Positions 19,695-60,092 of a stretch of DNA of 63,877 bases are shown piece by piece; the stretch's first letter is position 1; each line of letters begins with the position of its first letter. Origin of the DNA: Heterodontus francisci. Lineage: Eukaryota. The stretch covers positions 124,001-187,877 of the forward strand of contig NW_027142279.1 in assembly GCF_036365525.1 (NCBI RefSeq). Direction: 5' to 3'. The notes below the pieces were generated by a model. The model was not told the DNA's origin, did not search any database, and saw only the letters and a program-made list of their open reading frames with translations. The position numbers and the translations under genes were made by a program.

Positions 19695-19761
<67 letters not shown>

Positions 19762-21720: not shown

Positions 21721-22074
21721 AACAGGGTGAACAACACAACTGACAGACATGCAGGAGCAGTGACAATGGTTAATGTCTCTCCCTGCCTCACCGGCCGTTT
21801 TCCAAGCTGGTGATTCCCGGATTCCTGAACCTTCATCATGGGCTGAATGACAGGGAATAGCAGAAGGTCCGAGGAAGAGAGAGAGAAGGAAAGAGAGAGA
21901 TGTGTCTCAGATCCCCTGCAAAATTTCAAAGTCCTCGTCTACACCGTTTAATTTCTGGCACTGAGTATGTTAAAACTGAGTCACAGTCTCTGTCCTATAC
22001 TTGATTAATTAAAAGGTTAATTAATGATGTAAATAAGACAGATAGTTTACATCACCATTGTGAAGTGATGGATA

Positions 22075-25688: not shown

Positions 25689-25727
25689 CACAGTGACTCA
25701 GAGAGTTGGAGCAGTTCAACAAAAACC
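25689..25727 (+). other. 23-RSS
   Basis: CACAGTG - 23 nt - ACAAAAACC (full consensus). Confidence 0.97.
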
Positions 25728-27487
25728 CCAAAGGCAGCAGGAAACACCTGTGGAGGGTAAAACTGCCCGAAGCCTCGAATTTCTTTCGTTTTGCAGAGCG
25801 AAAGTGTTTATGATAACAAGAAGAGATGGGTCAGAGTGGTAGTGAGTGATTAGATATACAGGTAGTAGAGAATGTGCTAAGAACAATTGACAAGGATAAC
25901 ACGAAATCTGAGATTCTAACTATCAGGAAAGATCAACTATAAAACGACTTGAGTTCTTCTGCATTGACACTGAGTTTTCCTCCTCTGTAGGGTTAACAGA
26001 AAGTGCTCCAGGACCATGAATACACAATGGCCTGGCAAACATTTAATAGGAAAACAGAAAGAGGCAGAGATCATACAGCCCTCGAGCTTCATACACATTG
26101 ACAGGAGAAGCACATTCATCACCTTAGAGAGGGATATACACACACACAGTGAGAGAGACAAAGAGAGGGAGACCGAGTGTGTGAGAGAGGGATAGAACAA
26201 GATTGAGAGGAAAACTGACAGAGACAGAGAGACTGAGACAGAGAGACAGAGACTGAGACAGATAGACCGAGACAAAGAGACAGAGAGACTGAGACTGAGA
26301 CAGAGAGAGACTGAGAGAGACTGAGAGAGAGACTGAGAAAGAGAGATTGAGACAGAGAGGAGAAGAGAGAGGAGAGCGAGGAGGACAGAGAGGGGGAACA
26401 AGAAAGAGCGAGAGGGAAAACAAAAAACACAGAGGAAGAGACTGAGACAGAGACACTGAGACAGAGAGACAGTGAGAGAGACAGAGAGAGAGACTGAGAG
26501 ACAGAGAGAGACAGAGAGTGAGAGAGGGACAGAGAGAGAGAGCGATAGAGAGACTGAGAGAAAGCGACTGAGGGAAAGCGACTGAGACAGAGAGACAGAC
26601 AGAGGAGAGAGAGGAGGACAGAGAGGGGGAAGAAGGAAGTGCGAGAGAAAAGCAAAAAAAAACACAGAGGAAGAGAGTGAGACAGATTGGGAGACAGACA
26701 CACACACACACAGAATGAGACAGGGAGAGAAAGACAGAAAGCAGTAAAACAGAGGGAGACAGTGAATTAAAGACAGAGCGAGTGAAAAACACACGCACAC
26801 ACATGCACAGCTTTGTATCCGTGCCCATTCATCTTCCGGCTCATTGAATAAGAATATCCCGTGATCTCAGGATTGTAACTATCAGGAAAGAATAACAATA
26901 AAAGGACTGGGGCTGTTATAGACTGACACTGTTTATGTTTTCACCACAGGGACAGCTGAGGACGCTCTTGGACCATGTGATGTACAATGGCTTTTGAGAA
27001 GGAGTTCACAGGAAAACTGAAACAGTGAGAGAACGTACAGTCCTCCAGGTTGATATACATGACCAGGAGAAGGAAATCCACATCCTTAGAGAGAGAGAAG
27101 AGAGAGAGAGAGACACACACAGCGAGAGAGACAGAGAGACAAACAAAGAGAGAGAGAGAGACCTAATGTGTGTGTATCTGTGAGAGAGAGACTGAAATAA
27201 ACAGACTGAGACATATTGGGAGGCACAGAAGAGAGACAGAGAGGAAGAAAGGAGCATCACAAGTAAAGGACAGGGAGAGACAGAGAGAGAGAGAGAAAGT
27301 GGGTCATTGGCAACCAACTGGATTCTCATTTGTTGATGTGGGAAATGAACGTCACCATCTCTGCATCACTTCATAATGCTCTCCCTGTTCCTCCCAATGA
27401 TTTGTAAAGAGTGGGTTGGTTATTGACAACACTCATCACTCCTGCTCTCTCCCCTTTGCAGATTCAGAAGGCAGCTTAAAGTAAAAG

Positions 27488-27972
27488 ATGTATCTGTTAC
27501 TGACTCTGATCACCCTGTTTCACCGTAAGGAATTTTATTGAAACAATAATTCTACTTAACATTTCTTTAGGATATGGTTTTATTTATTTCGTTCTCTCCT
27601 TCTCTCTCTTTCTCTCTCCCCACTGGACTGAATTTCCCTGTTTATTGATCTCCTCCTCTCCCTGTCTCTTTCCCAGATGTGAACTCACAGACTATCCACC
27701 AGACTCCCGCCTCTGTCTCCAAATTTTCTGAGGAGCAGGTGAAGCTGAAATGCACCGTGGATGGCACCAGTAACCCTTACATGTACTGGTACAGACAATA
27801 CCCGGGGAAGGAGCCACAGCTGATGTTTTACTCCCTAACTGCACAAAGGGTGAACTCAGAGGGGACGGTGGAGGGTTTCACCGCCGAGAGACCGACTGAC
27901 TCCGAGTTCAACCTGCAGTCCTCCAGCCTGCGGGAGAATCACTCGGCCGTGTATTTCTGTGCCTGGAGAGAT
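27488..27972 (+). CDS. TRBV: TCR beta V segment, TRBV30-like; leader 27488-27524, V exon 27677-27972
   Basis: SQTIHQTP...KCTVDGTSNPYMYWYRQ...HSAVYFCAWRD; canonical splice sites. Confidence 0.93.
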
Positions 27973-28011
27973 CACAGTGACTCAGAGAGATGGAGCAGTT
28001 CAACAAAAACC
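27973..28011 (+). other. 23-RSS
   Basis: CACAGTG - 23 nt - ACAAAAACC. Confidence 0.97.
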
Positions 28012-29093
28012 CTAAAGGCAGCAGGAAACACCTGTGGAGGGTAAAACCGTTTGGTGCCTCCAGCTGTTGTTTCCTTATTCAGAGTGACAGTGTTTGTTAC
28101 AATAAAAAGAGTTGAGTTATGATTATAGTGACACACTAGATTTACAGGTACTGCCGAGGGTGCAATGAACGATTAATGAGGATGTCACGAGATCTCAGAA
28201 TGTAACTATCAGGAATCAATGACAATAATCTGGGTTTTTATGCACTGACCCTGTGTTTACCTTCTCCACAGGGACAGCAGAGGGGGATCCAGGACCATGG
28301 ACCAGACAATGGCTTTGAGAAGGATTTAGTGAGAAAACTAAGAGAGCAGGAGATCATGTCGATCCAGCTTAATATACATCAACAGGACAAGGACACCCAC
28401 TACTTTAGAGAGAGAAAGAGAGTGTATGTGTGTGAAAGAGAGAGCGAGATCTAGTGAGAGAGAGGAAAAACGACAGGCAGAGTTAAAGAGACTGAGACAG
28501 AGAGGGAGACAGAGATAGAGGCAAAGACAGTGAGACAGCAAGAGACACATAATGAGAGAGAGAGAGACACTGAGATAAAGAGCTTGTGACAGATAGGGAG
28601 ATAGATCTAGAGAGAGACAGAGACAGGGAAATAACTGAAGAGATAACAAGATTAAGAGAGAGGGAGAGTCAGAGAGAAGGAGAGAATGGGAGACATAACC
28701 TTAGATACATGAGGAGAGAGAGAGTCAGAGAGAGAAAGTGAGCGAAGATAGACTGAGTTAGAGAGGGAGAGAGAGTCTGAGAAAGGAAGAGAGTGGGAGA
28801 CATAAACCTAGACACATGAGGAGAGAGAGAGAGAGAGACAGAGAGAGAGTGCAAGAGAGCGGAAGGTAAACTGAGATAGAGATAGATAGAGAGAGAGAGA
28901 GAGAAGCAGAATGGCAGCCAATTCAATTCTGATTTGTTGACCTGGGTGAATGGGCGTCTCCAACATTGTATCACTTCCTAATGCTCTTCATGTTCCTCCC
29001 AATGATTTGTAAAGAGTGGATTTGGACCTTCACAAGACTCTAAGCTCCTGATCTCACTCCTGTGTCTATTAAGAGAACAAGTTGAAGTGAAAG

Positions 29094-29549
29094 ATGTATC
29101 AGTTACTGGGTCTGATAATCCTGTTTCATTGTAAGTGAGTGTGAAATACAAAGATTATCGGTAATAACTTTCCTCTCTTCTCCCTGTCTCCCTTTCATTC
29201 AGAGATGTTCCCTGTTTACTGATCTCCTCCTCTCTCCATCTCTCTCCCAGATGTGAACTCACAGACTATCCACCAGACTCCCGCCGCTGTCTCCAGATTT
29301 CCCGGGAAAGGAGTGGAACTGAGGTGCACTGTGGAGGGGAGCAGCAGTAACATCTACATGTACTGGTACAGACAAGAGCCGGGGAAGGAGCCGCTGTTGA
29401 TGTTTTACTCCAGTATTGCTAAATATGTGGATCCAGAGGGGACGGTGGACGGTTTTACCGCCAAGAGACTGAATAAGTACGAGTTCAAACTGGAGTCCTC
29501 CAGCCTGCGGGAGAATCACTCGGCCGTGTATTTCTGTGCCTGGAGTCTT
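29094..29549 (+). CDS. TRBV: TCR beta V segment, TRBV30-like; leader 29094-29130, V exon 29251-29549
   Basis: Leader MYQLLGLIILFH with GTAAGT donor; ...RCTVEG...WYRQ...YFCAWSL. Confidence 0.93.
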
Positions 29550-29588
29550 CACAGTGACTCAGAGAGATGGAGCCGTTCAACAAAAACC
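29550..29588 (+). other. 23-RSS
   Basis: CACAGTG - 23 nt - ACAAAAACC. Confidence 0.97.
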
Positions 29589-30534
29589 CCAAAGGCAGCA
29601 GGAAACACCTGTTTCAGATAAAACCAGGCGGTGCTGCTTCCTGTTGGTTGTTTGTTTTTATCATTGGTAACATGTTTTTCACAAGACAGGGCGGATTTAA
29701 ATAGAAAGTGACAGGTTAGATATCGAAGCACAGGGGAATTGTGGAACAGACTTTACAGGAATGATATCAGAACACAGAGGTTAAAGTTATCAAGAAAGTT
29801 TGAACATCGGGGATCAGAAACTGAAGGGTAAACATTCAACGGTCTTAGAGAGATTATTACAGATTTTAATATGTGAAATGAAGATCAGATAAACACAGTT
29901 AGATAGAGAGAGAGATAGATAGATAGAGAGAGAGAGAGAGATACATCCGTTGTCGTTGGATGTCACAGTGTTTTCTTTCTCCAAAGGGACAGCAGAGTGA
30001 GCTGTTGGACCATGATAAACATCAGAGTCTGGAACACACTTTAACAGCGACCTGGGAACACAAGGAGAACATTCATCACCTCGGAAACACTCCGCCCTTC
30101 AATGAGATCATGACTGATCAGTAACGTCCTGTCGCTCCCTCTCTCCATCCCTCTCTCTCCCTCTCTCCATCCCTCTCTCTCCATCCCTCTCTCTCCCTCT
30201 CTCTCCCTCTCTCCATCCCTCTCCCTCCAAACCTCTCCCTCTCTCTAGCCCTCACTACACGGTGGCAAACAACCCCACAATGTATAGGAACTAACTCAGC
30301 TCGGAACCCTTATCCATCTGAGCGCTGTTTCACACTGTTCAAAGGTGACACCCCTCTCCAGATACCTTCATCTCCGGGACTGGGACGTCTGCCTCCTGAC
30401 GGCGAGTTCAGAAGCTGCTGAAAACTGTTTACCCACTTCCATCTCGGGCTCGAGTCACATTTGATGTGTTCTTCAAAGAAACTAGCAGTTCAGACCAGTA
30501 AACAATTTAACCCCTTTAACTCCCATTCAGCAAA

Positions 30535-30895
30535 GAAGTACGGTAGCAGAGCAGTTATGTTACTGGACTAGTAATCCAGAGGCCTGGGCTAATGATCCCC
30601 AGACTTGAGTTCAATTCTCAGCAGGGGCAGAAATGGAATTTAAATTCAATTAAATAAATAAAAATCTATCAGAGAAAGCATGAGTAATCCTGAACATGGA
30701 GTGTCGTAAAAACCCAACGTATTCATTGATAACCTTCAGGGAAGGAAATCTGCCGTCCTTACCCGGTCTGGCCTATATGTGACTGCAGACCCACAGCAAT
30801 GTGGTTTACTATTAACTGCCCTCTGATATGGCCCAGCAGGTATTCCCGAAGATGGTTCACCAACACCTTCTCAGGGGCAATAAGGGATGGGCACA
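30535..30895 (+). mobile_element. tRNA-derived SINE-like repeat
   Basis: Head gttactggactagtaatccagagg...gagttcaattc with a B-box-like motif; a partial reverse copy lies at about 12060-12165. Confidence 0.55.
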
Positions 30896-31181
30896 CTCTC
30901 TGGGTATAGAGGGTTGTATCCCTGAATTCTACTCTATCAAATCCCTTTGTGAAATGTGAACACCTCTATTCAATCTCCCCCTATCCTCCTGTGTTGTATC
31001 ATTCAACAACATTGCTATGTAAAGTAATGGGGTGCAGCAGAGTGTCACAGTAAGTGACTGCCAATCACAATGACAACCGGATGCTGGGTATTTAATTGAA
31101 CACAATATAGAAACCGCCTGCAAGTGTGTTGTTGAAAACTCCACACGTTCACACATCGAGTTAGTATCGAATGAAGAAATC

Positions 31182-31882
31182 ATGTTGCTTGAAGTTCTCT
31201 GTCTAATCTTGATGCCTGCCCTGTTCCCACGTAAGTCAAAGTCTGAAACTGTAGAATAATGTATTGCAATGTCAGCGGTGATTCTGTTCCGTAACACTCC
31301 TGTGTCAGAGTCTCACTCCAGAACACTTGAGCTCAAAGTCAAGGCTAACACCCCAGGTGTCAGGACTGAGGGAGTGCTGCGCTGTCACAGAGGCAGTACT
31401 GAGGGGCTGCTGCACTGTCGCAGAGGCAGTACTGAGGGAGTAACTACATTGGTTGCCAAGCCCTTTCTGATGTCCTGAGGTCCTGAACGGCGCTATATTA
31501 ATGTAAGCCCTTTCTATCTTGCAATGCAGCTCCTGCTCCAATCCATTATTGACAGAAATAATAAGCTAATCGATGTTCCATCCCACAGGAATACTCTCCT
31601 CCTATGTGGAACAGTCGCCCTCTATCCTATCGATTGCAGCTGGAGATTCGACAACACTCAGATGCACGCTGACCAATACTGGCTATACATTAATGTACTG
31701 GTACAGACAACAACCAGACAGGGCACTGGAAGCTCTGTTCTATTCTGCTGGTCAAGGGTCTGTTACCAATTACACGTCCGAATCATTTAAGGCAGTCAGA
31801 ACCAGCGATACACTGTTTACTTTGGCACTGAGAGACGCCGCTCCATCTCACACCGCTGTCTATTTCTGCGCTTGTAGTATCG
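31182..31882 (+). CDS. TRBV: TCR beta V segment of a distinct family; leader 31182-31230, V exon 31589-31882
   Basis: Leader MLLEVLCLILMPALFP with GTAAGT donor; VEQSPS...LRCTLTNTGYTLMYWYRQQ...HTAVYFCACSI; SINE fragment in the intron. Confidence 0.92.
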
Positions 31883-31921
31883 CACAGTGTTTGAGAAAGC
31901 GGATCAGCAGCTGCAAAAACC
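31883..31921 (+). other. 23-RSS
   Basis: CACAGTG - 23 nt - GCAAAAACC. Confidence 0.96.
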
Positions 31922-31940
31922 TGCAGCGGATGAACAGGAT

Positions 31941-32520
31941 TTCAGTGCTCATCATCCACCGGCAGGGGGCAGCAGTAGATTGAATCTCAGTGCTCATCTT
32001 CCCCCGGCAGGGGGCAGCAGAGAATGAATCTCAGTGCTCATCTTCCCCCAGCAGGGGGCAGCAGTAGATTGAATCTCAGTGCTCATCTTCCCCCGGCAGG
32101 GGGCAGCAGTAGATTGAATCTCAGTGCTCATCTTCCCCCGGCAGGGGGCAGCAGTAGATTGAATCTCAGTGCTCATCTTCCCCCGGCAGGGGGCAGCAGT
32201 AGATTGAATCTCAGTGCTCATCTTCCCCCGGCAGGGGGCAGCAGAGAATGAATCTCAGTGCTCATCTTCCCCCAGCAGGGGGCAGCAGTAGATTGAATCT
32301 CAGTGCTCATCTTCCCCCAGCAGGGGGCAGCAGTAGATTGAATCTCAGTGCTCATCTTCCCCCGGCAGGGGGCAGCAGTAGATTGAATCTCTGTGCTCAT
32401 CTTCCCCCAGCAGGGGGCAGCAGAGAATGAATCTCAGTGCTCATCTTCCCCCAGCAGGGGGCAGCAGTAGATTGAATCTCAGTGCTCATTTTCCCCCGGC
32501 ACTGGGCAGCAGTAGATTTG
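31941..32520 (+). repeat. 44/45-bp tandem array (12 intact + 1 degenerate units), each with a CTCF-like core CC(G/A)GCAGGGGGCAG
   Basis: Unit ttgaatctcagtgctcatcttcccccggcagggggcagcagtaga, counted directly. The CTCF role is inferred from motif match. Confidence 0.9.
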
Positions 32521-33445
32521 ATCCTCCCTGATGTTGGTGGGCACAGTAATGAGCACAGACCAAGCTGTAGAATAGATCAGCAGCCCAGTATGACCCAGAT
32601 ATTGTTCCACCTACATCCCTCGGGCCAGTGTTGCAGAAAACGTTTGCCAGGAGTCCCACCTGACTATTTGAGAATCAACATCTGGCTATTTTTCTGAATT
32701 CGTTCATGGGATGTGGGCCTCGCTGGCCAGGCCAGCATTTATTGCCCATCCCTAATTGCCCTTGAACTGAGTGGCTTGCTAGGCCATTACAGAGGGCATT
32801 TAATAGTCAGCCACATTGTGTGGATCTGAAGTCACATGCAGGCCAGACCAGGTGAAGGCAGCAGATTTCCTTCCATAACTGACATCAGTGAACTAGATGG
32901 ATTGTTGCAATAATGGTCACCATTAGACGAGATTCTTTTGAAAATGTAGATTTATAAATGACATTAAAATTTCATGATCTGTATTGGTGGGATTCACCCC
33001 CACGTCCCTAAAACACTAGCTGGGGCGGTGGTTTAGGAGTCAAATTACCAACACACTAAAACATCCCCTACAGGAGCAGATCATTTGGAATGCAGATGTC
33101 TATAATTGGAAATCTACATGTGGCTAATTTGGGAATGCCGATGAGGTTCATTGGGAATCTGGATCTGTACAATTGGAGATTTCTAATCAGTAAATTAGAA
33201 ACTGAACAACAGAGACACTTGTTGGGGATTTTAACAACACTTACTCCAGTCACTCAACCAAAATAAGCAACCACGTCCAATCTGATTGGTTGGGTGGTAT
33301 AAGGGGGCGTGTCCAATACTGCATCACTTCCTCATGCCCTTCATGTTTTCCTCAATGATTTGTAAAGAGCGGATTGGTTAGTCACAGAATTGATCCCCTC
33401 TGTTCCACTGCCTTTGCTGTTTGGTAGGGCAGTGTCAAGTGGGAG

Positions 33446-33897
33446 ATGTATCTGTTCCTGGGTCTGATAATCCTGGTTCAAGGTGAGTGCCAAATATAAA
33501 GATTATCATTCAGAACCTTCCTCTCCTCTCCCTGTCTTCCTTTCATTCCCAGAAATTCCCTGTTTACTGATCTCCTCCTCTCTCCATCTCTCTCCCAGAT
33601 GTGAACTCACAGACTATCCACCAGATTCCCGCCGCTGTCTCCAGATTTCCCGGGAAAGGAGTGGAACTGAGGTGCACTGTGGAGGGGAGCAGCAGTAGCA
33701 TCTACATGTACTGGTACAGACAATACCCGGGGAAGGAGCCGCTGTTGATGTTTTTCTCCAGCACTGCTAACTATGTGGATCCAGAGGGGACGGTGGACGG
33801 TTTCACCGCCGAGAGACCGACTAGCTCCCAGTTCAACCTGGAGTCCTCCAGCCTGTGGGAGAATCACTCGGCCGTGTATTTCTGTGCCTGGAGTCTT
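33446..33897 (+). CDS. TRBV: TCR beta V segment, TRBV30-like; leader 33446-33482, V exon 33599-33897
   Basis: Leader MYLFLGLIILVQ with GTGAGT donor; ends YFCAWSL. Confidence 0.93.
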
Positions 33898-33936
33898 CAC
33901 AGTGACTCAGACAGATGGAGCTGTTCAACAAAAACC
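33898..33936 (+). other. 23-RSS
   Basis: CACAGTG - 23 nt - ACAAAAACC. Confidence 0.97.
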
Positions 33937-36098
33937 CCAAAAGCAGCAGGAAACACCTGTTTCAGATAAAACCAGGCGGTGCTGCGTCTTGTTGGGTGTT
34001 TTTATCATTGGGAACATGTTTCTCACAAGAAGACAGGGCGGATTTCAATAGAAAGTGACAGGATAGATATAGAAGCACAGGGGAATTGTGAAATAGACTT
34101 TACAGAAATGATATCAGAACACAGAGGTTAAAGTTATCAACAGAATTTGAACTTCGGGAATCTTTGCTCCAGAAAGGAGAAGACTGAAGGGTGAACTTTC
34201 AGCGGTCTTAGAGAGATTATTAAAGATTTTAAAATGTGAANNNNNNNNNNNNNNNNNNNNNNNNNNNNNNNNNNNNNNNNNNNNNNNNNNNNNNNNNNNN
34301 NNNNNNNNNNNNNNNNNNNNNNNNNNNNNNNNNNNNNNNNNNNNNNNNNNNNNNNNNNNNNNNNNNNNNNNNNNNNNNNNNNNNNNNNNNNNNNNNNNNN
34401 NNNNNNNNNNNNNNNNNNNNNNNNNNNNNNNNNNNNNNNNNNNNNNNNNNNNNNNNNNNNNNNNNNNNNNNNNNNNNNNNNNNNNNNNNNNNNNNNNNNN
34501 NNNNNNNNNNNNNNNNNNNAGGGAGGTAACTAGATAGAGATATAGACAGATAGGTAGAGAGATAGAAAGGTAGACAGATAGATGGATGGATGGATGGATG
34601 GATGGATGGATGGATAGATAGATAGGGACGTAGATAGATAGGGAGGTAACTAGATAGAGATATAGACAGATAGGTCGAGAGATAGAAAGGTAGATAGATA
34701 GTTGGATGGATGGATGGATGGATAGATAGATAGGTAGATAGATAGATAGGGAGGTAGATAGATAGGGAGGTAACTAGATAGAGATATAGACAGATAGGTA
34801 GAGAGATAGAAAGGTAGATAGTTAGATGGATGGATGGATGGATGGATATGGTGTGGTTTTATTTCACTGCGTTTTCTTTCTCCAAAGGGACAGTAGAGTG
34901 CGCTGTAGGACCATGATAAACATTAGAGTCTGGAACAAACTTTAACAGTGACCTGGGAACACAAGGAGACCATTCATCACCTCGAAAACAGACCGACCTT
35001 CAATGAGATCATGACTGATCAATGGATTCCCATCGCTCCCTCTCTCTCTCTCCCTCTCTCTCCATCTGTCTGCATCCCTATCTCTCCCCCTTTCCCCATC
35101 CTGCTCTCTCCCACTCTCTTCATCCCTCCTTCTCCATCTCTCTCTATTCCTCCCTCTCCCTCTCTCTCCATCCCTCTCTCACCCACTAGCTACCAAGCTG
35201 GTGTAAAATGAGAGAATGCCAATTAACATTCCTATCTTTTACAGGGGCATGGACTGTCTCTCTATCTAGCTCGCTATTTCTCTACCGATCTGACTTTCCC
35301 TCTATCTCTCTATTTCTCTACCTCTGTATCTATCTGTCTACCTGACTGTCTCTCTATCTATCTATCTCTCTACCTGGTTATCTATCTCTCTGTCCCTCTA
35401 TCTATCCATCTCTGTACCTGGTTGTCTATCTCTCTATCTATCTCTCTACCTGGTTTTATATCTCTCTGTCTCTCTGTCTATCTATCTCTCAAACTGGTTA
35501 TCTATCTCTCTATCTATCTAACTCTATCTTTAGGTGATTACACTTTGTATGAACTAATTAAACATATTGCAATAATGTAATGAATGACCATCTTTTCCTC
35601 GATTTTCTATTTATTGACCAGTCGATGATGAGGTGTGTCATCAATTATTTATCAAAATCCTCTATGATCTTGAATATCTGTATCACATCGAACATTAACC
35701 TTCTGTGCTCGAAGGAGAGAAACCCCCAGCTTCTCCAGTCTCTCCACAGTAACTGAAGTCCCTCATCCCTGGTACCAGTCTGGTTAATCTCCCTCTAACC
35801 TTCACTACACAGAGGAAAACAACCCCCAATGCACAGGAGCTCAATACATTCGGTGATGAAACACAGAGACCAGGGTGATTCAGGGAGACATAGAGAGGAA
35901 AAAATGAATGGAACAGAGGGAGACAGAGACAGAAAGATGCACACAAACACACACACACACACACACACACAGACACACACGCACACACAGATACAGAGAG
36001 AGAAAGAGAGTGAACGAACGGGAGACATAAAGCTGGATACATGCAGAAAGATCGAGAGTGAGAAACAAAGAGTAAGAACGAGAGAGGAAGGCGGATTG

Positions 36099-36161
<63 letters not shown>

Positions 36162-36347
36162 GAGAGCGGCATTGTCTACCTACTCCACTCTAACTTGTTG
36201 ACCTGGGCGTCACCATCTCTGCATCACTTCCTACTGATTTCCCTGTTCCCTTTACAATGATTTGTAAAGAGTGGGGTGGTTGTTGACAACACTAATCACT
36301 CCTGCTCTCTCCCCTTTGCTGATTCTGAGGGCAGCTTAAAGTGAAAG

Positions 36348-36834
36348 ATGTATCTGTTACTGACTCTGATCAGCCTGTTTCACCGGAAGGGATTTTATTG
36401 AAACAATAATTCTACTTAACATTTCTTTTGGATATGTTTTTATTTCTCCCATTCTCTCTTTCTTTCTCTCTTTCTCTCTCCCCACTAGACTGAAGTTCCC
36501 TGTTTACTGATCTCCTCCTTTCCCTGTCTCTTTCCCAGATGTGAACTCACAGACTATCCGCCAGACTCCCGCCGCTCTCTCCAAATCTCCTGGCGGGCAG
36601 GTGAAGCTGAAATGCACCGTGGATGGTAGCAGTAACCCTTACATATACTGGTACAGACTACACCCGGGGAAGGAGCTGCAGCTGATGTTTTATTCCCTAA
36701 CTGCACAAAGGGTGAACTCAGAGGGGACGGTAGAGGGTTTCACCACTGAAAGACCAACTGACTCCGAGTTCAACCTGGAGTCCTCCAGCCTGCGGGAGAA
36801 TCACTCGGCCGTGTATTTCTGTGCCTGCAGTCTT
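36348..36834 (+). pseudogene. TRBV: TRBV30-like V segment with intact exon and RSS but a mutated leader splice donor; leader 36348-36384, V exon 36539-36834
   Basis: Donor reads GGAAGG at 36385 versus GTAAGG in the paralogues; WYRL; ends YFCACSL. Confidence 0.8.
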
Positions 36835-36873
36835 CACAGTGACTCAGAGAGATGGAGCAGTTCAACAAAAACC
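36835..36873 (+). other. 23-RSS
   Basis: CACAGTG - 23 nt - ACAAAAACC. Confidence 0.97.
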
Positions 36874-37464
36874 CCAAAGGCAGCAGGAAACACCTGTGGA
36901 GGGAAAAACCGTTCGGTGCCTCGACCGACTGTTCCTTTATGCAGAGTGAAAGTGTTTATTACAATAAAAAGAGTTGAGTTATGATTGTAGTGACACACTA
37001 GATTTACAGGTACTGCCGAGGGTGCAAAGAACGATTAATAAGATAGCACGAGATCTCAGAATGTAACCAGCAGGAATCAATGACAATAATCTGTTTTTTT
37101 ATGCACTGACACTGTGTTTACCTTCTCCACAGGGACAGCAGAAAGGGATCCAGTACCATGGACTGGACAATGGCTTTGAGAAGGATTTAGTGAGAAAACT
37201 GAAAGAGCAGGTGATCATGTAGATCCAGCTTGATACACATCAACAGGACAAGGACGCCCACTTCGTTGGAGAGAGAAAGAGAGTGTATGTGTGTGTGAAA
37301 GTGAGAGTGATCTAGTGAGAGCGAGAGGAGAGTGAGACGAAAAACGACAGGTAGAGTTAAAGAGACTGAGACAGAGAGGGGGACAGAGATAGAGACAATG
37401 AGGTAAAATTACTGGGATACATCTGGAGAATGAAGGATTATTATAGGGATTGATCTGGGAGATT

Positions 37465-37940
37465 GAGTGGGGTCAGTGAGTGGAGTCAATGAGTGGAGTC
37501 AGTGAGTGGGATCAGTGAGTGGGGTCAGTCAGTGGGGTCAGTGAGTGGGGTCAGAGAGCGGAGGCAGTGGGTGGAGTCCGTGAGTGGAGTCAGTGACAGA
37601 GGCAGTGAGTGGAGTCTGTAAGTGGAGTCCGTGATTGGGGTCAGTGTGCGGGGCCAGTGAGTGGAGTTAGTGTGCCGGGTTAGTGAGCGGGGTTAGTGAA
37701 CGGGGTCAGTGAGGAGTCAGTGAGTGGGATCAGTAAGTGGTGTCAGTGAGAGGGGTCAAAGAGAGGAGTCAGTGAGTGGTGTCAGTGGGTGCGGTCAGTG
37801 AGAGGGGTCAGTGTGTGGGGTCAGTGTGTGGGGTCAGTAAGCGGGGTCAGTGAGAGGGGTCAGTGAGAGGAGTCAGTGAGTGGTGTCAGTGAGGTGGGTC
37901 AGTGACAGGAGTCAGTGAGTGGAGTCAGTGATTGGGGTCG
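37465..37940 (+). repeat. 13-bp minisatellite (cagtgagtggggt)
   Basis: Imperfect tandem copies running into an assembly gap. Confidence 0.85.
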
Positions 37941-39019
37941 ANNNNNNNNNNNNNNNNNNNNNNNNNNNNNNNNNNNNNNNNNNNNNNNNNNNNNNNNNNN
38001 NNNNNNNNNNNNNNNNNNNNNNNNNNNNNNNNNNNNNNNNNNNNNNNNNNNNNNNNNNNNNNNNNNNNNNNNNNNNNNNNNNNNNNNNNNNNNNNNNNNN
38101 NNNNNNNNNNNNNNNNNNNNNNNNNNNNNNNNNNNNNNNNNNNNNNNNNNNNNNNNNNNNNNNNNNNNNNNNNNNNNNNNNNNNNNNNNNNNNNNTCTAT
38201 CTATTGTTCCTTTTGTCTATCCATCCATCGCTCTATCGATCCCTCCAGCTATCGATACATATCTCTGTTTATCTATTTATCTCTATTTAATCTGTCATCT
38301 ATATATATTTGTCATCGATCAATTTATCTGGCTCTTATCTGTCTAAGTGTATATTCATCCCTCTGTTGTTTATCATATATCTAACGTCATTGTTTACATC
38401 TCGCAGTTCCATCAGTGATATATCATGGTTTGCTATTTTGTTGATATTGTTGCATCTTCTTGTTCTCCTTCGATTCAGATTATATCAATACAATATTAAT
38501 GATTAAAATACTCCATCCATGTGATAAGGCTCTTTTCGTGAAGGTAGCCTCTACATTTTAAGAACAGATTACGAGGCAGGGTAAATGGGTTCATGATACA
38601 GTTGAAAGAATGGACGGAGGATTCTGACAAGGAGTTGTACAGACCTCCCTATTCTACATGCCCCTGATGATTCATACAATGCAAATACGAGAGACCTCCC
38701 CAGATAGGTCTCTCACTGGAACAGATTCCTAATTTGGCGGTTTTGAGCAACTGTTGACAATTGTTCACCAACTTGTCTTTCAGACACTCGGTGTCTTCTG
38801 AAGAACTTTCAAAGCATCTGGGAGTTAGGCCCAGGCAAGAATTTAACCCTTCAATTCTCGTTTAGGAGACAGGGAAAATAAATCTTTCTCTGCCTAAAAC
38901 AAATAAGCCCCTTGATGCATCTCAGATAGTTATAGAATCAAACAGCACTAACCATGGTCATTCGATCAATCGAGCCTGGCCTGGCTGTTCGAAACAGTTA
39001 CCCAAAATAAACAACATCA

Positions 39020-39790
39020 TCCCTTGGCCATGGGCTGCAAGAAGTACAGAATCTGTTACAAACTGCTGGATAGCACATGAACTAAAGTAACCTAAGCTCA
39101 GACACTGGCCTGTGCTGGTAAAAACCAGTTTGAACTAATTAATTTATGTGACAGACAAGGGAGAAATCACAGGAATAGAGCCTTATTTGGAAACGGTGAT
39201 ATACCGGGGTCTTTGGGCCTGGGCCAATAAGGAGAAGATGCGAACGAGGTGAGCAGGCCTAAACCAACAGGAAAGAGACAGCACAGTTTTGAAGAGATAA
39301 GAAAGAGAATAAGTATGGAGAATCTCAGGCATAGTGCCAGCGGGAAACTCCAGAGACCAACCATCGTGGAAGTGGAAGACCCTGCGTGAGCAACGCGGTG
39401 ACGACATAAGAGAGAGACAGATCGGAACGTCTGGCCAGCATCAGCTCTCCCCTTTCTGGGAATTATCGTTTGTTTTCTGTGACGAGGTCAGGGAAAGGTC
39501 AGAGTAACCTAGTGGGTGTGCTTATCAATTCTAGCTAGCTTTGTTATTAACTGTATAACCCAGTTTGAGTTGCATGCTTTTGTCTAACCAAGTGTATAAG
39601 CCTTATTCTTACATTGTACAACAACATGAATAAAATAACTTGATAGTTAAAGAAAGGACTGAGTTTTCTCCTCTTTGTGCTAAGCCATTAACTGTAGCTG
39701 GTGGATTAGTTGGAGGGTGGCTCTCCTGTAACCCCAATATCCCAAACACCCAGCCTGAGTCTGAATTAAGAGGACTTAGTCCCACGCAAC
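39020..39790. mobile_element. Possible solo LTR or unclassified insertion
   Basis: Interrupts the paralogy with 19900-20650; contains AATAAA near its 3' end. No target-site duplication confirmed. Confidence 0.3.
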
Positions 39791-40019
39791 GGCCAGGATT
39801 AAGTGGGTGAAGGGAATAAAGGGGCCAAGGGGGAGTTGACTCCGCGCCATGGTTTACAATCCTGTTCCCATCTCTCTGCATTTCAGCCCATCAGCACCTC
39901 CTTCTATTCCTTACTCCCTCATGTCCTGATTTAATCTCCCCCTTAAATGCATCTCCATTATTGGCCTTAACTTACTCGCTGTGGTAGCGAAATTGTGCCC
40001 ACTGGTTGTAGTCTTCCCA

Positions 40020-41780
40020 ACCACAGAATCACAGAATTGTTCCAGTGCAGAAGGAGGTCATTCGGCCAATCGTGCCCGCACTGTCTCTCTGGAAGAGAAA
40101 TTCCCTCAGTCCCATTCCCCTGCCTTCTCCCCATAACCCTGCACATCCTTCCTTTCCATATAACTGTCCAATTCCCTTTTGAATGCTTCAATTGAAGCTG
40201 CCTCCACCACGTTCTCAGGCAGTGCATTCCAGACCTTCATCACTCGCTGCGTGAAAAAGCTTTTCCTCATGTCACTTTTGCTTCTCTCACCAAATATTTT
40301 AAATCTGTGCCCCTTCGTTCTTGATCCTTTCAGGAGCGGGAACATTTTCTCTCCATCTACTCTGTCCAGCCCCCTCATGATTTAGAATACCTACACAAAA
40401 TCGACTCTCAGCCTTCTCTTCTCCAAGAAAAACAGTCCCAACCTATCCTGCCACTTTTAATGACTTCTCCAAATATACACAAAAGCCCTTCTTCTCCTGC
40501 ACCCCCTTTCGAATTGTGCCCTTTATTCTATATTGTTCATCCGACCAAAATGAATCACTTCACATTTCTCTGCATTGAACCTCATCTGCCACCTGTCTGT
40601 CCATTCCACCAACATGTCTATGTCCTTTTCAAGTTCGACATTATCCTCCTCACAGTTCACAATGCTTCCAAGTTTCGTATCATCGGCAATATTTGAAACT
40701 GTGCCCTGTACACCAAGGTCTAGGTCATTAATATATATGAGGAAAAGCGAGGGTCCTAATACTGATCCCTGGGGAACTCCACTAAAAGCCTTCCTCCAGC
40801 CCGAAAAAACATCCATTAACCACTGCTCTTTGTTTTCTGTCACTAAACCAATTTCGTATCCATGTTGATACCGTCCCTTTTATTCCACGAGTGACAAGTT
40901 TTCTCACAAGTTTGTTGTGTGGCATTGTATCAAACGCCTTTTGAAAGTCCATGTACACCACGTCCACAGCATTGCCCTCATCAACCCTCTCTGTTGCCTT
41001 CTCAAATGAATTCTAGCAAGTTAGTTAAACATGATTTTCCCTTATGGAATCCATGCTGTCTTTCATTAATTAACTCGTCCATGTGACTATTGATTTTGTC
41101 CCGAATTATTTTTTCTAGAAGTTTCCCCACCATCAAAGTTAAACTGACTGGCCTGTAGTTGCTGGGCTTATCTTTACCCCTTTTTTGAATAAGGGTGTAA
41201 CGTTTAAAATTCTCCAGCCCTCTGGCACCAGCCCTGAGTCTAAGGAAGACTGAAAAATTATGGCCAACGCCTCTGCGATTTCCAACCTCACTTCCCTCAG
41301 TATCCTTGGATGCATCTCATCTGGTGCTGGTGCTTTATCCACTTTATGTTCAGAAAGCCAATCTAATCCTTTCTCTTTACCCATTTTAAACACTCTAGTG
41401 TCTGAATTATCTCCCTTTTCAACCAGAGCAAACTACTTAACTGCATCTACACTGTCTATACCTTTAAGGACTTTGTAGGTTTCAATGAGATCACCTCTCA
41501 TTCTTTGAAACTCTGGAGAATAAAGGCCCAGTTTCCCCAATCTCTCTTCATAGGACAGTCCCGCTATCCCGGGAACAAGTCTGGTGAACCTTCTTAGCAC
41601 TCGCTCTATGTGAATAATATCCTTCCGAAGGTCAGGGGACCAAAACTGCACACAGCACTCCAGGTGCGGTCTAACCATGGTTCTATACAATTGAAGAAAG
41701 ACTTCATTACTCCTGTACTCAAATCCTCTTGTGATAAAGGCTAACATAACATTAACCTTCCTAATTGCCTGTTGATGCTA
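40020..41780 (-). mobile_element. CR1-type LINE ORF2 fragments
   Basis: DVVYMDFQKAFD, SGVPQGSVLGP, ADDTKL and DKAPAPDEMHPRILRE motifs; frameshifted. Confidence 0.9.
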
Positions 41781-42632
41781 TATGTGAAGTTTCTACCTTC
41801 CGAAGCTCCTGCCAGGGGATATCATTTCTCCCTAACTACTCTATCGAACGGCTGTACCTACAGGGTTAAAACGTCCCATTAGCTTGCTCTGATCCAGGAA
41901 AACTGTCCCAGCTTCTCCAGTCTCTCCACATAACAACTGTCTCTCAACCATGGCACCATTCTGGTAAATGTTATTTGAACCGTCCCAGGTTCAAGGATAA
42001 CGATGGCATAGTTGCAATGTCACTGCGATAATAAGCCAGAGGCCTCGGCTCATGCCCTGGTTACACGGGTTCAGGCACCGGCACACCCAGTGCAATTTAA
42101 ACATGCCAAGGGCCCAGTAATGTGCATAGCCCTGCTGTAGAATAGGTAAGGAGCCCAGTGCCACACAGATGGTGTTGCACCTACTTGCCTCAGGCCACTG
42201 TTGCTTACAACGTTTGCCAGGAGACACACGGCATCGACATCTGGCTATTCGGGGATGAAGGTGTGGATAATCTGGAATCCAGATGTCTATAAATTTGAAA
42301 TCTACATGTGGCTAATGTGGGAATGCCGATGAGGTTCGTTGGGAATCTGGATATTTTCAATTGGAGATTTCTAATCAGTAAATTAGAAATTGAGTAACAG
42401 GCACCCTTGTTGGGGATGTTGACAACAGTTACTCCAGTCACTCAACCATAACAAGCAACCACGTCCATTCTGATTGGTTGAGTGGTGGAAGGGGGCGTGT
42501 CCAACACTGCATCACTTCCTCATGCTCTTCATATTGTCCTCAATGATTTGTAAAGAGCAGGTTTGGACCATCACAAGGCTTACACTCCGGTTCTCGCTGC
42601 TTTGTTTATTTCTAAACAGCTTCAAGAGGAAG

Positions 42633-43086
42633 ATGTATCAGTCATTGGCTCTGATAATCCTTTTGCACTGTGAGTGAGTCTGAAATACCAACGTTTTCTC
42701 CAATAACATTCCTATACTCATTCCCTCTTCCTTTCATTTCCTAGAAATCCCCTGTTCACTGACCTCTTCCTCTTCCCCACTCTCACCCAGGTGTGAACTC
42801 ACAGACTATCCTCCAGACTCCTGCCACTGTCTCCAGAGTTGTGGGGGAGGAAGTGGAACTGAAGTGTACTGTGGAGGGGAGCAGTACTCTTACCTTGTTC
42901 TGGTACAGACAATACCCGGGGAAGGAGCCTCAGGTTATGTTTTACTCAACGGGTACTAATCACAAAAATCCAGAGAAGGCGGTGGACGGTTTCACTGCCG
43001 AGAGACCGACTGGCACCCAGTTCAACCTGGAGTCCTCCAGCCTGTGGGAAAATCACTCGGCCGTGTATTTCTGTGCCTGGAGTCTT
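42633..43086 (+). CDS. TRBV: TCR beta V segment, TRBV30-like; leader 42633-42669, V exon 42791-43086
   Basis: Leader MYQSLALIILLH with GTGAGT donor; ...KCTVEGSSTLTLFWYRQ...YFCAWSL. Confidence 0.93.
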
Positions 43087-43125
43087 CACAGTGACTCAGA
43101 GAGATGGAGCAGTTCAACAAAAACC
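43087..43125 (+). other. 23-RSS
   Basis: CACAGTG - 23 nt - ACAAAAACC. Confidence 0.97.
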
Positions 43126-44703: not shown

Positions 44704-45049
44704 ACCTGTGGGAGATAAAGTTGCGCTGTGCAGAGACTTGATTTTTGTGCAGGGCGATGGTGTTTGTGACAATAAGAAGGTACCCGTGAGAATAAAAGTG
44801 AGAGAATAAATATAGAGGCACTGGTAAAGATGTCACTAATAGCCTGCTTATGTTCCCTAAAACCTTCTGTCTGTCTATGAATGATTAACGGGGATGTGAC
44901 CCAAATTGAGAAGATGTAAATATCAGGAAGGAATGATCACTAAAAACATTTAGGTTTCATCTCCTGACACTATCTTCATTCTCCACAGGGACAGCAGAGA
45001 GCGCTCTAGGACCGTCAAGCACACAACAGCCTGCCCCCTGCTTATTCAG

Positions 45050-45715: not shown

Positions 45716-46330
45716 TTGTGAGTTCATAATGTTGTGTGATGCAACATAAATGAGAAGCGTGGAGTCCAGTTGGTTGACGATCACAAACAAGTCTATTTAC
45801 AGCTGAACTATCATACACTGTACTGAGCTAACTATTTACAGGACCCGACTGTTGGTGTTCCAGTTACAGAGTGACACTGGCTACGAGTCACGTGACTACG
45901 TGCTGGAATTTAGCTCATTAGCATCCTAAGATCTTAAAGGGACATGAGAGAGAAATGGAGAGACGGACAGAGAAAGACAGAGGGAGAGAGAAAGATTAAC
46001 ACTAACGAATACAATAACAACTTGAGGAAAAAACACCAACAAATGCAGCAGCAACTTCAGCAGGTGACGAGCACCAAAAAATGCAACAACTTCAGCTGGA
46101 GACTACCAGCAACAAATGCAGCAACAACTTCAGCAGGAGACTAATAGCAACAAACGCAACAACAACTTATACTTGCAGCCAAACAGAGAGACAGGGACGT
46201 GGCTTCCAATCAGGGAGGTAGGAGTTGTGAAAACCAAATCACTTACTTCAGTCTTCATGTAGCTTCTCACCGGACTCAAAGCTCTTGTTTCCACTGATTT
46301 ACAGATTACAAACACAGCTTCCAGTAGAAG

Positions 46331-46367
46331 ATGTATCTGTTACTGAATCTGATAGCATTATTTCAAT
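46331..46367 (+). pseudogene. Orphan V leader exon (MYLLLNLIALFQ) with no V exon
   Basis: 37-nt leader with GTAAGG donor; the upstream ~130 bp is paralogous to the promoter of the inverted V at 16627. Confidence 0.8.
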
Positions 46368-46439
46368 GTAAGGGATCTTTTTCCCACGGAACTGTTTGTG
46401 TTGACAATCAACATTGATCTTTTCGCAGTACCCGTTTCC

Positions 46440-46735
46440 CGCAATTAGGGGGAGCAGTTGCTGGAGGTGCAGCTGTCATTGCCCACCAACAGGAGGCAGC
46501 AGTAGATGGAGGTTCAGCTCGCATTGCCAACCAACAGGGGGCAGCAGTAGATGGAGGTTCAGCTCGTATTGCCCACCAAAAGGGGGCAGCAGTAGCTGGA
46601 GGTGCAGCTCTCTTTGTCTACCAACAGAGGGCAGCAGTAGACGGAGGTGCAGCTCTCTGCCCACCAACAGGGAGCAGCAGTCGATGGAGGTGCAGCTGTC
46701 ATTGCCCACCAACAGGCGGCAGCAGCAGATGGCAT
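46440..46735 (+). repeat. Second 45-bp tandem array (about 7 diverged units) with CTCF-like cores CCAACAGGGGGCAG
   Basis: Unit approximately ggaggtgcagctgtcattgcccaccaacagggggcagcagtagat. Confidence 0.85.
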
Positions 46736-51345: not shown

Positions 51346-51546
51346 TTATACAGGGAGAAGAAGATTAGAATATGGAGGAGAGAAAGTGTTTATGGAAACA
51401 GGAGACTTCCAATGGGATAATAACTCGGAAAAGGGAAGGACACGTGATTAATAGGGAAATTTGAAGTGAGAGATAAAGGGACAGAAAAATGAGAGAGAGA
51501 GAGAGAGGGGGGGAGAGGTTTTATTGAACTGCTTTGTAACATCGTG

Positions 51547-51560
51547 GGAGGTCAGTATAG
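51547..51560 (+). other. TRBD: D segment GGAGGTCAGTATAG flanked by a 5' 12-type RSS and a 3' 23-RSS
   Basis: 5' heptamer CATCGTG 51540-51546 with a degenerate nonamer (TTTTATTGA at 12 nt or GGTTTTATT at 14 nt); 3' CACCGTG 51561-51567 - 23 nt - GCAAGAACT 51591-51599. Confidence 0.8.
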
Positions 51561-51829
51561 CACCGTGTTACATTCCTGTGCTCACCCCGTGCAAGAACTC
51601 CACCGTCCTCTTGCCCTTCTCACAGGCTGCCCGACTGCCTGCCCCAGTGCCCAGGAAATCCCCACCCCTGCAGCAAGGTACCTCCACTGTCAGGACAGGC
51701 AGGAGCAGACTGAATCCTGAGTTGACCATCTCATGGGGCACATGCCCCCTGAAGAGATAGCAAACTGCCCAGGCAAGGCGAGAGGCTTGCTGGGGGAGGG
51801 GGGTTTCAATGGTGGGTTCACTCTCTGTG

Positions 51830-51878
51830 GTGAACGATCCAGCTACCTTCGGAGGTAGGACCCGACTCACCGTACTGG
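51830..51878 (+). other. TRBJ: J segment 1 (VNDPATFGGRTRLTVL), FGxG motif altered
   Basis: GGTTTCAAT (51802-51810) - 12 nt - CTCTGTG (51823-51829); phase-1 donor GTAAGT at 51879. Confidence 0.88.
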
Positions 51879-52271: not shown

Positions 52272-52307
<36 letters not shown>

Positions 52308-53120: not shown

Positions 53121-53855
53121 ACAGTTCTGGACCATTGACCATGGTGCCCGGGTTGGCTCTTTTCTACAGCTGTCTGATTGATCCCAGTTCCCTCCCACCC
53201 TATCGCTATAGACCTGCAATTCCTCCCTTCAGCTGTTGACCCAATTCTCTTTGTAATACTGTGAGTCAATCCCACCGCCCTTTCAGGCAGTGCATTCCAC
53301 ATCACAACAGCTCACTGCTTTGTGTCACGGGAAACAGTTTTGCATCATTTCCTCTGTCAAAACGATGACCGATTGCAAACGTCTCTGCTAATTCTCCCCT
53401 GAACTTTCTCTTCAGGAGAACAATCCCAGCTCCTCCAGTCTCTCCACATTAACTGAAGTCTCTCATCCTTGGTGTCATCTTGTGTGAACTCACTTTATTT
53501 CTCTTTCGTTCACAGTTTCTGCCACTAAGTTCCTCATCCTCATTATTTCTTATCCTTATCTCTCTCTCTACTTGCCCTCTTCCCTTTCCCTGTTGTTTGT
53601 CTCTGCTTGCCCCCTCTCTCCTTGCCATCCTTCGTTTGTGTTCAATCAACTACCTCTCCCTCGCTTTCCTACACACTCCTGTTCTAAGTCTCCTTTTCTC
53701 TCAGTCCTGGTGGTAGTGTTGCCCTGGATGATCGGCTTGCAGCTCTGGACTGGGACTCGGGCAATGAGAGTCAGAGAGGGTTCTGTCTCAGAGGCGGCTC
53801 ATAACTGACAGAGTAATGGTTTAAAGGCCTTTTGCGTGAGCAATGTGGTGGCGTG

Positions 53856-53913
53856 AATACGGGAAATTATAACCACGTGTACTTTGGAAACGGAAGTGGA
53901 TTAACAGTGTAAG
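53856..53913 (+). pseudogene. TRBJ: J segment 2 pseudogene (NTGNYNHVYFGNGSGLTV*)
   Basis: FGNG motif; TAA at 53910-53912; donor position reads ATCAGT; degenerate RSS gccttttgc...tggcgtg (53827-53855). Confidence 0.75.
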
Positions 53914-59492: not shown

Positions 59493-59754
59493 TGTTCTGT
59501 TATCACATCCTTTATAATAGTCTCCAGCATTTTCCCCACTACTGATGTAAGGCTAACTGGTCTGTAATTCCCTGTTTTTTCCCCTCCCTCCTTTCTTTTA
59601 CAGAGTCTACAACAAACTGTCGAAGTTGTGGTGAAGGAGAATGAACGCTGGGGTAAACACACGCCCCACCCCTCGCCACAACCCCCCCCCCCACCCCACC
59701 CCACCCCGCTTCCATCCCCACCGTTCCTAACACTCATGTTTTGCTCTCCCACAG

Positions 59755-60092
59755 AGGCAGACCAAGAGGTTAACCATCCCACTGTGACCGTTTTTGAGCT
59801 GTCGGATGAAGAAATCAGGGCCCCTATGAAAGCCACTATTGTCTGCCTGGCCAGTGGCTTCTTCTCGGACTACGTTAAGTTCTCCTGGGCGGGGGGCAAC
59901 GAGGAGATCGAGACGAAGGATGTGCTGACTGACAGGCAGGTAAAGGATGATGCAGGCCGCTACAGCGTGGACCAGTAGGGTGAGGGTTCTCATGGCCGAA
60001 TGGGGCCCGCAAGCAGTATTCCTGCAAAGTGACCCATTACAGTAAAGCCGGCGCAGAGATTTCTCAAGATGCCAAGATCAGCAGTAAGGCAG
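59755..60092 (+). pseudogene. TRBC: TCR beta-like constant-region exon 1 (C1-set Ig domain), doubly frameshifted
   Basis: Acceptor ctctcccacag and donor GTGAGT at 60093. Reconstructed EADQEVNHPTVTVFELSDEEIRAPMKATIVCLASGFFSDYVKFSW...VLTD...YSV/TSRVRVLMAEW../KQYSCKVTHY, with shifts near 59970 and 60004-60010. The exon is 338 nt, not a multiple of 3. Confidence 0.85.

What the first reader, a model, noticed from the sequence alone, without database searches (positions are those of the whole stretch)
46440..46735. Second CTCF-like 45-bp array at the V-to-D boundary
Seen: about 7 diverged units with TGCAG/TTCAG 18 nt before CCAACAGGGGGCAG-type cores, the same period and orientation as the 32-kb array and sharing GGCAGCAGTAGAT. 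It lies after the last V remnant and 4.8 kb before D. Known: CTCF elements between V and D/J (IGCR1 in Igh, Cer/Sis in Igk) regulate rearrangement. Inferred: an analogous boundary element in a cartilaginous fish.
Basis: partly seen in the sequence, partly recalled or inferred. Interest (0 to 1): 0.7.

Follow-up and report, generated by a model that had tools for sequence, protein, structure and literature searches.

The report
CTCF-site array flanking shark TCR-beta units
A short DNA repeat made of likely docking sites for the genome-folding protein CTCF sits at the same spot in every copy of a shark's multiplied T-cell-receptor-beta gene unit; the D-J-C right behind it is broken, so the repeat likely fences off the far end of the working gene and not its V-to-D border, and binding is untested.

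Summary
The array is real: six 45-bp units plus one worn unit, each a CTCF-like core (12-13 of 14 consensus positions), four with the upstream TGCAG, all pointing toward D. It is not an IGCR1/Cer equivalent. The D-J-C behind it is a pseudogene cassette (C exon broken in 24 of 24 copies, though transcribed and spliced). The intact TCR-beta D-J-C lies tail-to-tail 31 kb further on the opposite strand and has its own V-D CTCF-like sites. Seen from the intact gene, the array lies 3' of C, points back, and borders an inverted V cluster: the position and orientation of mouse Tcrb CBE3, with the tandem build of the 3'Igh CBEs. It recurs in 24 of 24 cassettes and behind 17 of 17 evaluable intact C genes, but these are recent duplicates, and substitutions show no clear sparing of the motif. 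It likely arose as a deletion scar: a V promoter and leader fused to an RSS-side CTCF unit that then expanded. No binding data exist here. Earlier scan notes describe the sister arrays, the V-D sites and the multiplied units; none shown describes this array or the pseudo cassette.

The parts
46461..46735 (+). Six full 45-bp units (type A): upstream TGCAG/TTCAG, 6-bp linker, CTCF-like core, all pointing toward D-J-C
   Evidence: PWM scores 16.0, 19.4, 17.2, 18.5, 13.1, 14.3 of a maximum 27.9 (recalled matrix)
46422..46460 (+). Worn first unit; in several paralogues it has the spacer of the 32-kb (type B) unit, likely the founder of the array
   Evidence: L015, L020, L021, L023, L024; score 7.3
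46046..46387 (+). V promoter and leader remnant (leader exon 46331-46367, MYLLLNLIALFQ, GT donor) with no V exon or RSS behind it
   Evidence: 77% identical over 359 bp to the 5' region of the V at window 16134(-); ATG and open leader in 24 of 24, donor in 23 of 24 paralogues
31942..32518 (+). Sister array (type B, 13 units) starting just 3' of the 23-RSS (31883) of a V of the CACS family
51519..51599 (+). Non-canonical D (51547-51560) with degenerate 12- and 23-RSS; part of the pseudo cassette
51830..51878 (+). J1 of the pseudo cassette (FGGR in place of FGXG); spliced to C in RNA contigs that also cover the unrearranged D-J interval
53848..53911 (+). Second J-like segment (approximate limits), poor RSS
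59604..59652 (+). Short J-like exon spliced to C in one RNA contig
   Evidence: joint 59651-59754, GT..AG
59755..60092 (+). Divergent TCR-beta-like C exon 1, frameshifted with a premature stop
   Evidence: frame confirmed without gaps by DNA and RNA contigs
19200..43125 (+). Eight V segments with open V exons and 23-RSS; inverted relative to the intact D-J-C beyond the window
44988..45006 (+). Single weaker CTCF-like site of a V-region family, same orientation
   Evidence: score 12.4

Best explanation
The array is a tandem set of likely CTCF sites that likely serves as the 3' loop anchor and insulator of the intact TCR-beta unit lying tail-to-tail beyond the window, and is not a V-D barrier for the broken D-J-C next to it. 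Shown: its units all face the broken D-J-C, the intact C (31 kb away) and a strong oppositely oriented CTCF-like site in the intact unit's V-D interval (61 kb away), and it stands between that block and an inverted V cluster. Inferred: CTCF and cohesin would close a loop of about 50-80 kb around both D-J-C cassettes and the enhancer, keep enhancer and RAG activity inside, and set how often the inverted V genes are reached by inversion, as mouse CBE3 does for Trbv31. Inferred origin: a deletion joined a V promoter and leader to the RSS-side CTCF unit of another V family; the unit then expanded and was carried through the amplification of the whole locus.
For: Motif far above chance. 7 of 106 tandem arrays in 464 kb score >=15, and all 7 belong to this 45-bp family. 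The upstream motif with a 6-bp linker, tandem copies, and a core facing the enhancer side are the configuration reported for strong insulators (PMC12885311 passages). 24 arrays pair one-to-one with 24 pseudo D-J units at 2.9-6.4 kb. 17 of 21 intact-type C genes have an array 22.6-34.4 kb 3', pointing back; the other 4 lie 3-20 kb from a contig end. All 21 have the V-D element 25-46 kb 5'. Mouse CBE3 lies between E-beta and inverted Trbv31, faces the upstream V CBEs, and its loss raises Trbv31 use about 2-fold. Ten same-direction CBEs end Igh. Bamboo shark has V arrays inverted 34-46 kb 3' of both C genes. Skate TAD borders show the CTCF orientation code. The pseudo cassette is transcribed and spliced in one sample, so open chromatin reaches within 5 kb of the array. 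Every array keeps at least 2 units scoring >=15 (24 of 24).
Against: No binding or contact data. Among paralogues the array diverges as fast as or faster than its flanks (85.5-100% against 87-100%). Substitutions are not depleted in the core (12 of 38, expected 10.1, p=0.47), and their effect on the score equals random (p=0.98). Mean score of 41 distinct units equals neutral decay (p=0.70), and fewer units than expected stay >=15 (0.41 against 0.61). All units carry a non-consensus A in the core. The 24 copies are recent duplicates of one unit, so fixed position is not independent evidence. An unrelated CTCF-like minisatellite has 8289 exact matches genome-wide, so such repeats occur in this genome outside receptor loci. 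The enhancer was not located.
Confidence: 0.5

Rival explanations
1. Neutral scar: a leftover RSS-side CTCF unit expanded by slippage into a minisatellite after a V deletion and rode along with locus amplification. It may bind CTCF but does no selected job.
For: No excess conservation over flanks; no core sparing; unit number varies 4-8; the neighbouring cassette is broken in every copy; the genome is rich in minisatellites, one of them CTCF-like with 8289 matches.
Against: No array among 24 has lost all good units. A and B consensus units share 17 of 19 core positions against 16 of 26 outside (p=0.046, marginal). The four most informative 5' core positions never vary among 41 distinct units, and 98% stay >=11 against 82% simulated (biased by how units were picked and by shared ancestry).
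Confidence: 0.28
2. Relic V-D element of a second TCR-beta unit that once worked.
For: Lies between V genes and a 12/23-flanked D-like segment in 24 of 24 cassettes; CBE2 faces D-J; the cassette still makes germline J-C transcripts and one copy has a recognisable TM exon.
Against: No V-facing partner site between 43.2 and 51.5 kb at score >=11; the V-facing site is the dominant one in IGCR1; C is broken in all copies and the only database relative is the same truncated reading.
Confidence: 0.12
3. Headless-V tether: the kept V promoter loads cohesin and the multiplied CTCF sites anchor extrusion toward the intact D, pulling the inverted V cluster next to the D 12-RSS and raising inversional joining, as the Trbv1 promoter plus CBE does in mouse.
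For: Promoter and leader sit directly 5' of the array in 24 of 24 copies; the convergent site is 5 kb from the intact D1; Trbv1 needs both promoter and CBE for extrusion and can join by inversion (abstract); all four intact-type C genes on this 1.1-Mb contig are on the minus strand, so its plus-strand V genes have no intact same-strand partner there.
Against: A 37-bp leader would often survive 5-10% divergence by chance; promoter activity is not shown; mouse CBE3, the positional analogue, lowers use of the inverted V.
Confidence: 0.1

Closest known systems
Mouse Tcrb CBE3 (PMC10772921 passages; bioRxiv 10.1101/2024.10.13.618029 sections 6-7; PMC5859386 passages)
   Same: 3' of C, between the D-J-C block and inverted V, facing back toward D-J and the upstream V genes.
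   Different: CBE3 is one site beside one V; here 4-8 tandem units guard a whole inverted V cluster, and a transcribed pseudo D-J-C lies inside the fenced block. Binding is shown in mouse, not here.
3'Igh CBE cluster (ten consecutive CBEs; PMC10293834 passages)
   Same: Many same-direction sites 3' of the constant region, convergent with a site in the V-D interval.
   Different: The Igh cluster ends the locus; this one is a 0.3-kb 45-bp minisatellite inside a locus of repeated units, with more V genes beyond it.
IGCR1 (Igh), Cer/Sis (Igk), 5'PC/CBE1 (Tcrb)
   Same: CTCF-like sites between V and a D-like segment.
   Different: No V-facing site; not a divergent pair; the adjacent D-J-C is broken. 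The sites at C2233:229383-231794, in the intact unit's V-D gap, fit this role better.
RSS-associated CBEs of proximal VH genes (PMC6746451 passages)
   Same: The homologous type-B unit sits at a fixed distance (core 37 bp) behind the RSS nonamer of one V family and is co-oriented with it.
   Different: Type A has lost its V exon and RSS; tandem expansion of such units is not described in the passages read.
Bamboo shark TRB layout (PMC10322711, supplementary file 16, sheet 2)
   Same: V arrays inverted 3' of C, gap of 34 kb as here.
   Different: Two units, no D-J-C annotated in the gap, no CTCF annotation; here at least 21 intact-type C and 24 pseudo cassettes on 7 contigs.

Membership tests
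CTCF binding site with upstream (ZF9-11) motif | Core matches the CTCF consensus | tested here: met
   12-13 of 14 positions of CCASYAGRKGGCRS in 6 of 6 full units; consensus PWM 19.5, 3 of 20000 shuffles as high (recalled matrix)
CTCF binding site with upstream (ZF9-11) motif | TGCAG-type motif at a 2-7 bp linker (usually 5-6) | tested here: met
   6-bp linker in 3 units, 4-bp in 1, TTCAG in 2
CTCF binding site with upstream (ZF9-11) motif | Bound by CTCF in vitro or in vivo | not testable with these tools
   none of the 12 runs listed is labelled ChIP
CTCF binding site with upstream (ZF9-11) motif | Motif positions under purifying selection | tested here: inconclusive
   no core depletion among paralogues; marginal core excess between A and B (p=0.046)
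IGCR1 / Cer / 5'PC-CBE1 V-D(J) boundary | At least one site facing the V genes (divergent pair in IGCR1) | tested here: not met
   all units face D; no reverse site >=11 between 43.2 and 51.5 kb; reference orientations
IGCR1 / Cer / 5'PC-CBE1 V-D(J) boundary | Borders a functional D-J-C recombination centre on its V side | tested here: not met
   C exon 1 broken in 24 of 24 copies; degenerate D and J RSSs
Tcrb CBE3 / 3'Igh CBE anchor | 3' of the functional C, pointing back toward D-J | tested here: met
   17 of 17 evaluable intact-type C genes; C exon open in 3 of 3 translated
Tcrb CBE3 / 3'Igh CBE anchor | Convergent partner site on the V side of D | tested here: met
   C2233:231794(-), score 21.2; 23 copies of the element
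Tcrb CBE3 / 3'Igh CBE anchor | Enhancer lies between C and the anchor | tested here: inconclusive
   motif scan of the 17.5-kb interval shows no clear peak
Tcrb CBE3 / 3'Igh CBE anchor | Forms loops, insulates, or alters V usage | not testable with these tools
   needs Hi-C, 4C or genetics
RSS-associated CBE | Fixed short distance behind an RSS | tested here: not met
   no RSS near the A array (none between 43388 and 51561 on +); met for the type-B sister at 7 RSSs in 464 kb

The most novel reading that the evidence does not exclude
A V gene stripped to its architectural parts (promoter plus a multiplied RSS-side CTCF site) was co-opted as a CBE3/super-anchor that partitions at least 21 repeated TCR-beta units into self-contained loop domains, each enclosing an intact and a tail-to-tail transcribed pseudo D-J-C, and meters inversional use of a whole 3' V cluster. 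This would carry loop-anchored control of V(D)J recombination back to cartilaginous fish and show how a multi-unit TCR locus can avoid cross-unit joining.
Probability: 0.25. Interest if true: 0.8.

Novelty: new variant of a known kind. Interest (0 to 1): 0.5.

Why it matters
CTCF control of V(D)J recombination is known almost only from mouse. This locus offers the mouse Tcrb set of parts (V-side sites, V-D sites, a 3' anchor next to inverted V genes) in a shark, repeated about two dozen times, with natural variation in unit number (4-8) and in the presence of the intact partner. That makes the anchor model testable by comparing V usage across units. If the array is neutral, it is still a clear case of how CTCF clusters arise from a V-gene deletion scar.

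Tried and rejected
Sequencing runs: 12 listed, 4 DNA holders from one sample and one study, no RNA holder listed by the index, none labelled ChIP, no other organism; so no binding test and no cross-species test. In the D-J lay no contig joined J1 to a V or to non-germline 5' sequence in X5 (9 contigs laid), and X6 and X7 had none laid; this absence is not evidence. Protein search for full-length relatives of the divergent C found none (weak search); the near-length search found one truncated model. Sequence look-up in earlier scan notes found nothing, nor did a word search for a tail-to-tail pseudo constant. I first took the 51-55-bp CTCF-like array at C2233:98.4-99.5 kb as a second, independent locus-specific array; one search showed it is a genome-wide minisatellite, so I dropped it as support and count it against. 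TRF missed that array as a full-period consensus, so the 7 of 106 count leaves it out. An enhancer motif scan was uninformative. Substitution tests dropped 9 of 50 distinct units with indels and did not count the worn first unit. A Pfam call failed on a frame slip and was not needed. An early horn shark TCR-beta paper, which I recall as reporting multiple clusters, was not held and is not used. Literature searches listed no paper on CTCF sites in elasmobranch TCR loci or on a pseudo D-J-C in this position; subscription papers are mostly outside the library, and bioRxiv supplements were closed.

Full report
Observation. Window 46422-46735 holds six full 45-bp units and one worn unit. Each full unit reads upstream motif, linker, core. 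The cores match the published consensus CCASYAGRKGGCRS (PMC6746451, passages) at 12-13 of 14 positions and all carry a non-consensus A. With a CTCF weight matrix recalled from memory they score 13.1-19.4 of 27.9; 3 of 20000 shuffles of the unit reach 19.4, and none combine a score of 15 with TGCAG. In 464 kb of the contig, 7 of 106 tandem arrays score 15 or more, all from this 45-bp family.

The locus. The window holds eight plus-strand V segments with open V exons and 23-RSS, then the array, a D-like segment, two J-like segments and a C exon whose best solved relatives are all TCR-beta chains. The only database protein found for that C is a 115-aa model labelled Heterodontus francisci, 97% identical, which ends in the same frameshifted tail. 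The genome has 24 copies of this C exon and all 24 are broken by stops and frameshifts. DNA and RNA contigs cross the broken stretch without gaps, so it is not an assembly error. The D lacks the GGGACAG core seen in the canonical D segments, and its signals are degenerate. The cassette is still transcribed in one sample: contigs cover the unrearranged D-J interval and splice J1, and a short J-like exon, to C.

The intact gene is elsewhere. Mapping C2233:4001-467877 shows a canonical TCR-beta unit on the minus strand, tail-to-tail with the broken one: C at 201.4-201.8 kb, about 20 J segments, D segments at 217.6 and 226.9 kb, then V genes. Its C exon is open in 3 of 3 copies translated, and a TM exon follows in the copy scanned. 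There are 21 such C copies. Its V-D interval has three single CTCF-like sites, at 229383(+), 231680(+) and 231794(-); the element has 23 copies, and every one of the 21 C genes has one 25-46 kb upstream. Earlier scan notes describe these sites too.

Where the array stands. The genome has 24 close copies of the array, on 7 contigs totalling 8.5 Mb. Each lies 2.9-6.4 kb before one of exactly 24 pseudo D-J units. Seventeen of the 21 intact-type C genes have an array 22.6-34.4 kb on their 3' side pointing back; the other four are 3-20 kb from a contig end. Of the remaining seven arrays, four head an outer duplicate cassette, two are near contig ends and one has D-J but no C found behind it. An 18-mer shared by both array types has 463 exact matches against 0 for the reversed control; the first 100 listed are all on two of these contigs and, if the list is in contig order, none is on contigs 1-406 (363 not shown).

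Origin. Directly 5' of the array is a V promoter and leader exon, 77% identical to those of the V at window 16134(-), with no V exon or RSS behind it. The type-B unit stands behind the RSS of one V family as 1-13 copies. A and B consensus units are colinear, 33 of 45 identical, and in five paralogues the worn first A unit has the B spacer. I infer a deletion that fused one V's promoter to another V's RSS-side CTCF unit, followed by expansion.

Comparison with known elements. IGCR1 is a divergent pair whose V-facing site dominates (PMC10293834 passages). Cer, 5'PC and CBE1 face the V genes (PMC5859386 and PMC10772921 passages). The array faces D only and precedes a broken cassette, so it fails as a member of that class. 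Mouse CBE3 lies between E-beta and the inverted Trbv31 and faces back; its loss raises Trbv31 use about 2-fold and lets E-beta reach the next gene (bioRxiv 10.1101/2024.10.13.618029, sections 6 and 7). Ten same-direction CBEs lie 3' of Igh. Relative to the intact shark gene the array has the place and direction of CBE3 and the tandem build of the Igh cluster. Bamboo shark also has V arrays inverted 34-46 kb 3' of C (PMC10322711 supplementary file 16, part 1), and skate TAD borders follow the CTCF orientation rule (PMC10115646 passages). Sites with the upstream motif, in tandem, with the core toward the enhancer are reported as the strongest insulators (PMC12885311 passages).

Results against function. 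The array is no better conserved than its flanks among the 24 paralogues. Of 38 distinct substitutions, 12 fall in the 12 core positions (expected 10.1, p=0.47), and their effect on the score equals random. Simulated neutral decay gives the same mean score (p=0.70), more units at 15 or above than observed (0.61 against 0.41) and fewer at 11 or above (0.82 against 0.98); the last is biased by unit picking, the dropping of 9 of 50 indel units and shared ancestry. A against B shows only a marginal core excess (p=0.046). An unrelated CTCF-like minisatellite has 8289 matches across the genome. The copies are recent duplicates, so 24 of 24 is one evolutionary observation. No binding data and no other species' DNA were available, and the enhancer was not located.

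Verdict. A real, locus-restricted array of likely CTCF sites. Most likely a 3' anchor and insulator of the intact TCR-beta unit (0.5); a neutral expanded scar is the main rival (0.28). It is a new variant of a known kind. The searches run listed no paper describing it. Interest 0.5.

Noticed in passing
window 51519-60092 and 23 paralogues (L071-L094): A divergent TCR-beta-like D-J-C cassette lies tail-to-tail with the canonical one; C exon 1 is broken in all 24 copies yet germline J-C transcripts are spliced. Not annotated in the bamboo shark table and not in the scan notes shown.
   Followed up: partly
G000 contigs C2233, C1675, C779, C407, C1317, C761, C876 (8.5 Mb): At least 21 canonical TCR-beta C genes, 98-100% identical, in repeated V-D-J-C units of both orientations; a review read in passages calls shark TCR loci translocon. 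Earlier scan notes report multiplied units with a lower count.
   Followed up: partly
G000:C2233:229383-231794 (L047): Three single CTCF-like sites in the canonical V-D interval, two facing the V genes and one facing D-J-C; the better candidate for a 5'PC/CBE1-like element; 23 copies.
   Followed up: partly
G000:C2233:98369-99470 (L040): A 51-55-bp minisatellite with a strong upstream CTCF motif and a CTCF-like core; 8289 exact matches genome-wide, dense on contig C21. A possible genome-scale source of CTCF sites.
   Followed up: partly
G000:C2233:194219(+), also 12820 and 455072: A single CTCF-like site with upstream motif (score 18.7) between the two C genes, facing the canonical C, in 3 of 3 units mapped; a second candidate for the CBE3 role.
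   Followed up: no
G000:C2233:192063-193395: A 1.3-kb non-coding block between the two C genes has 78-83% copies among the V genes (251.9 kb, 62.3 kb); possibly enhancer-like.
   Followed up: no
window 9275-9717, 13946-14978, 16788-17342, 46032-46168: A 35-38-bp CAA-rich repeat recurs, in two cases directly 5' of V promoters.
   Followed up: no
window 12241(-) and about 21.4-21.7 kb (+): V-like segments of other families: a pseudo V ending YYCRAHKDT, and one ending YYCAARE with no RSS found by the strict scan.
   Followed up: no
L023, L024: A SINE-like insertion of about 360 bp separates the leader from the array in two paralogues; the same element appears at window 59050-59370.
   Followed up: no
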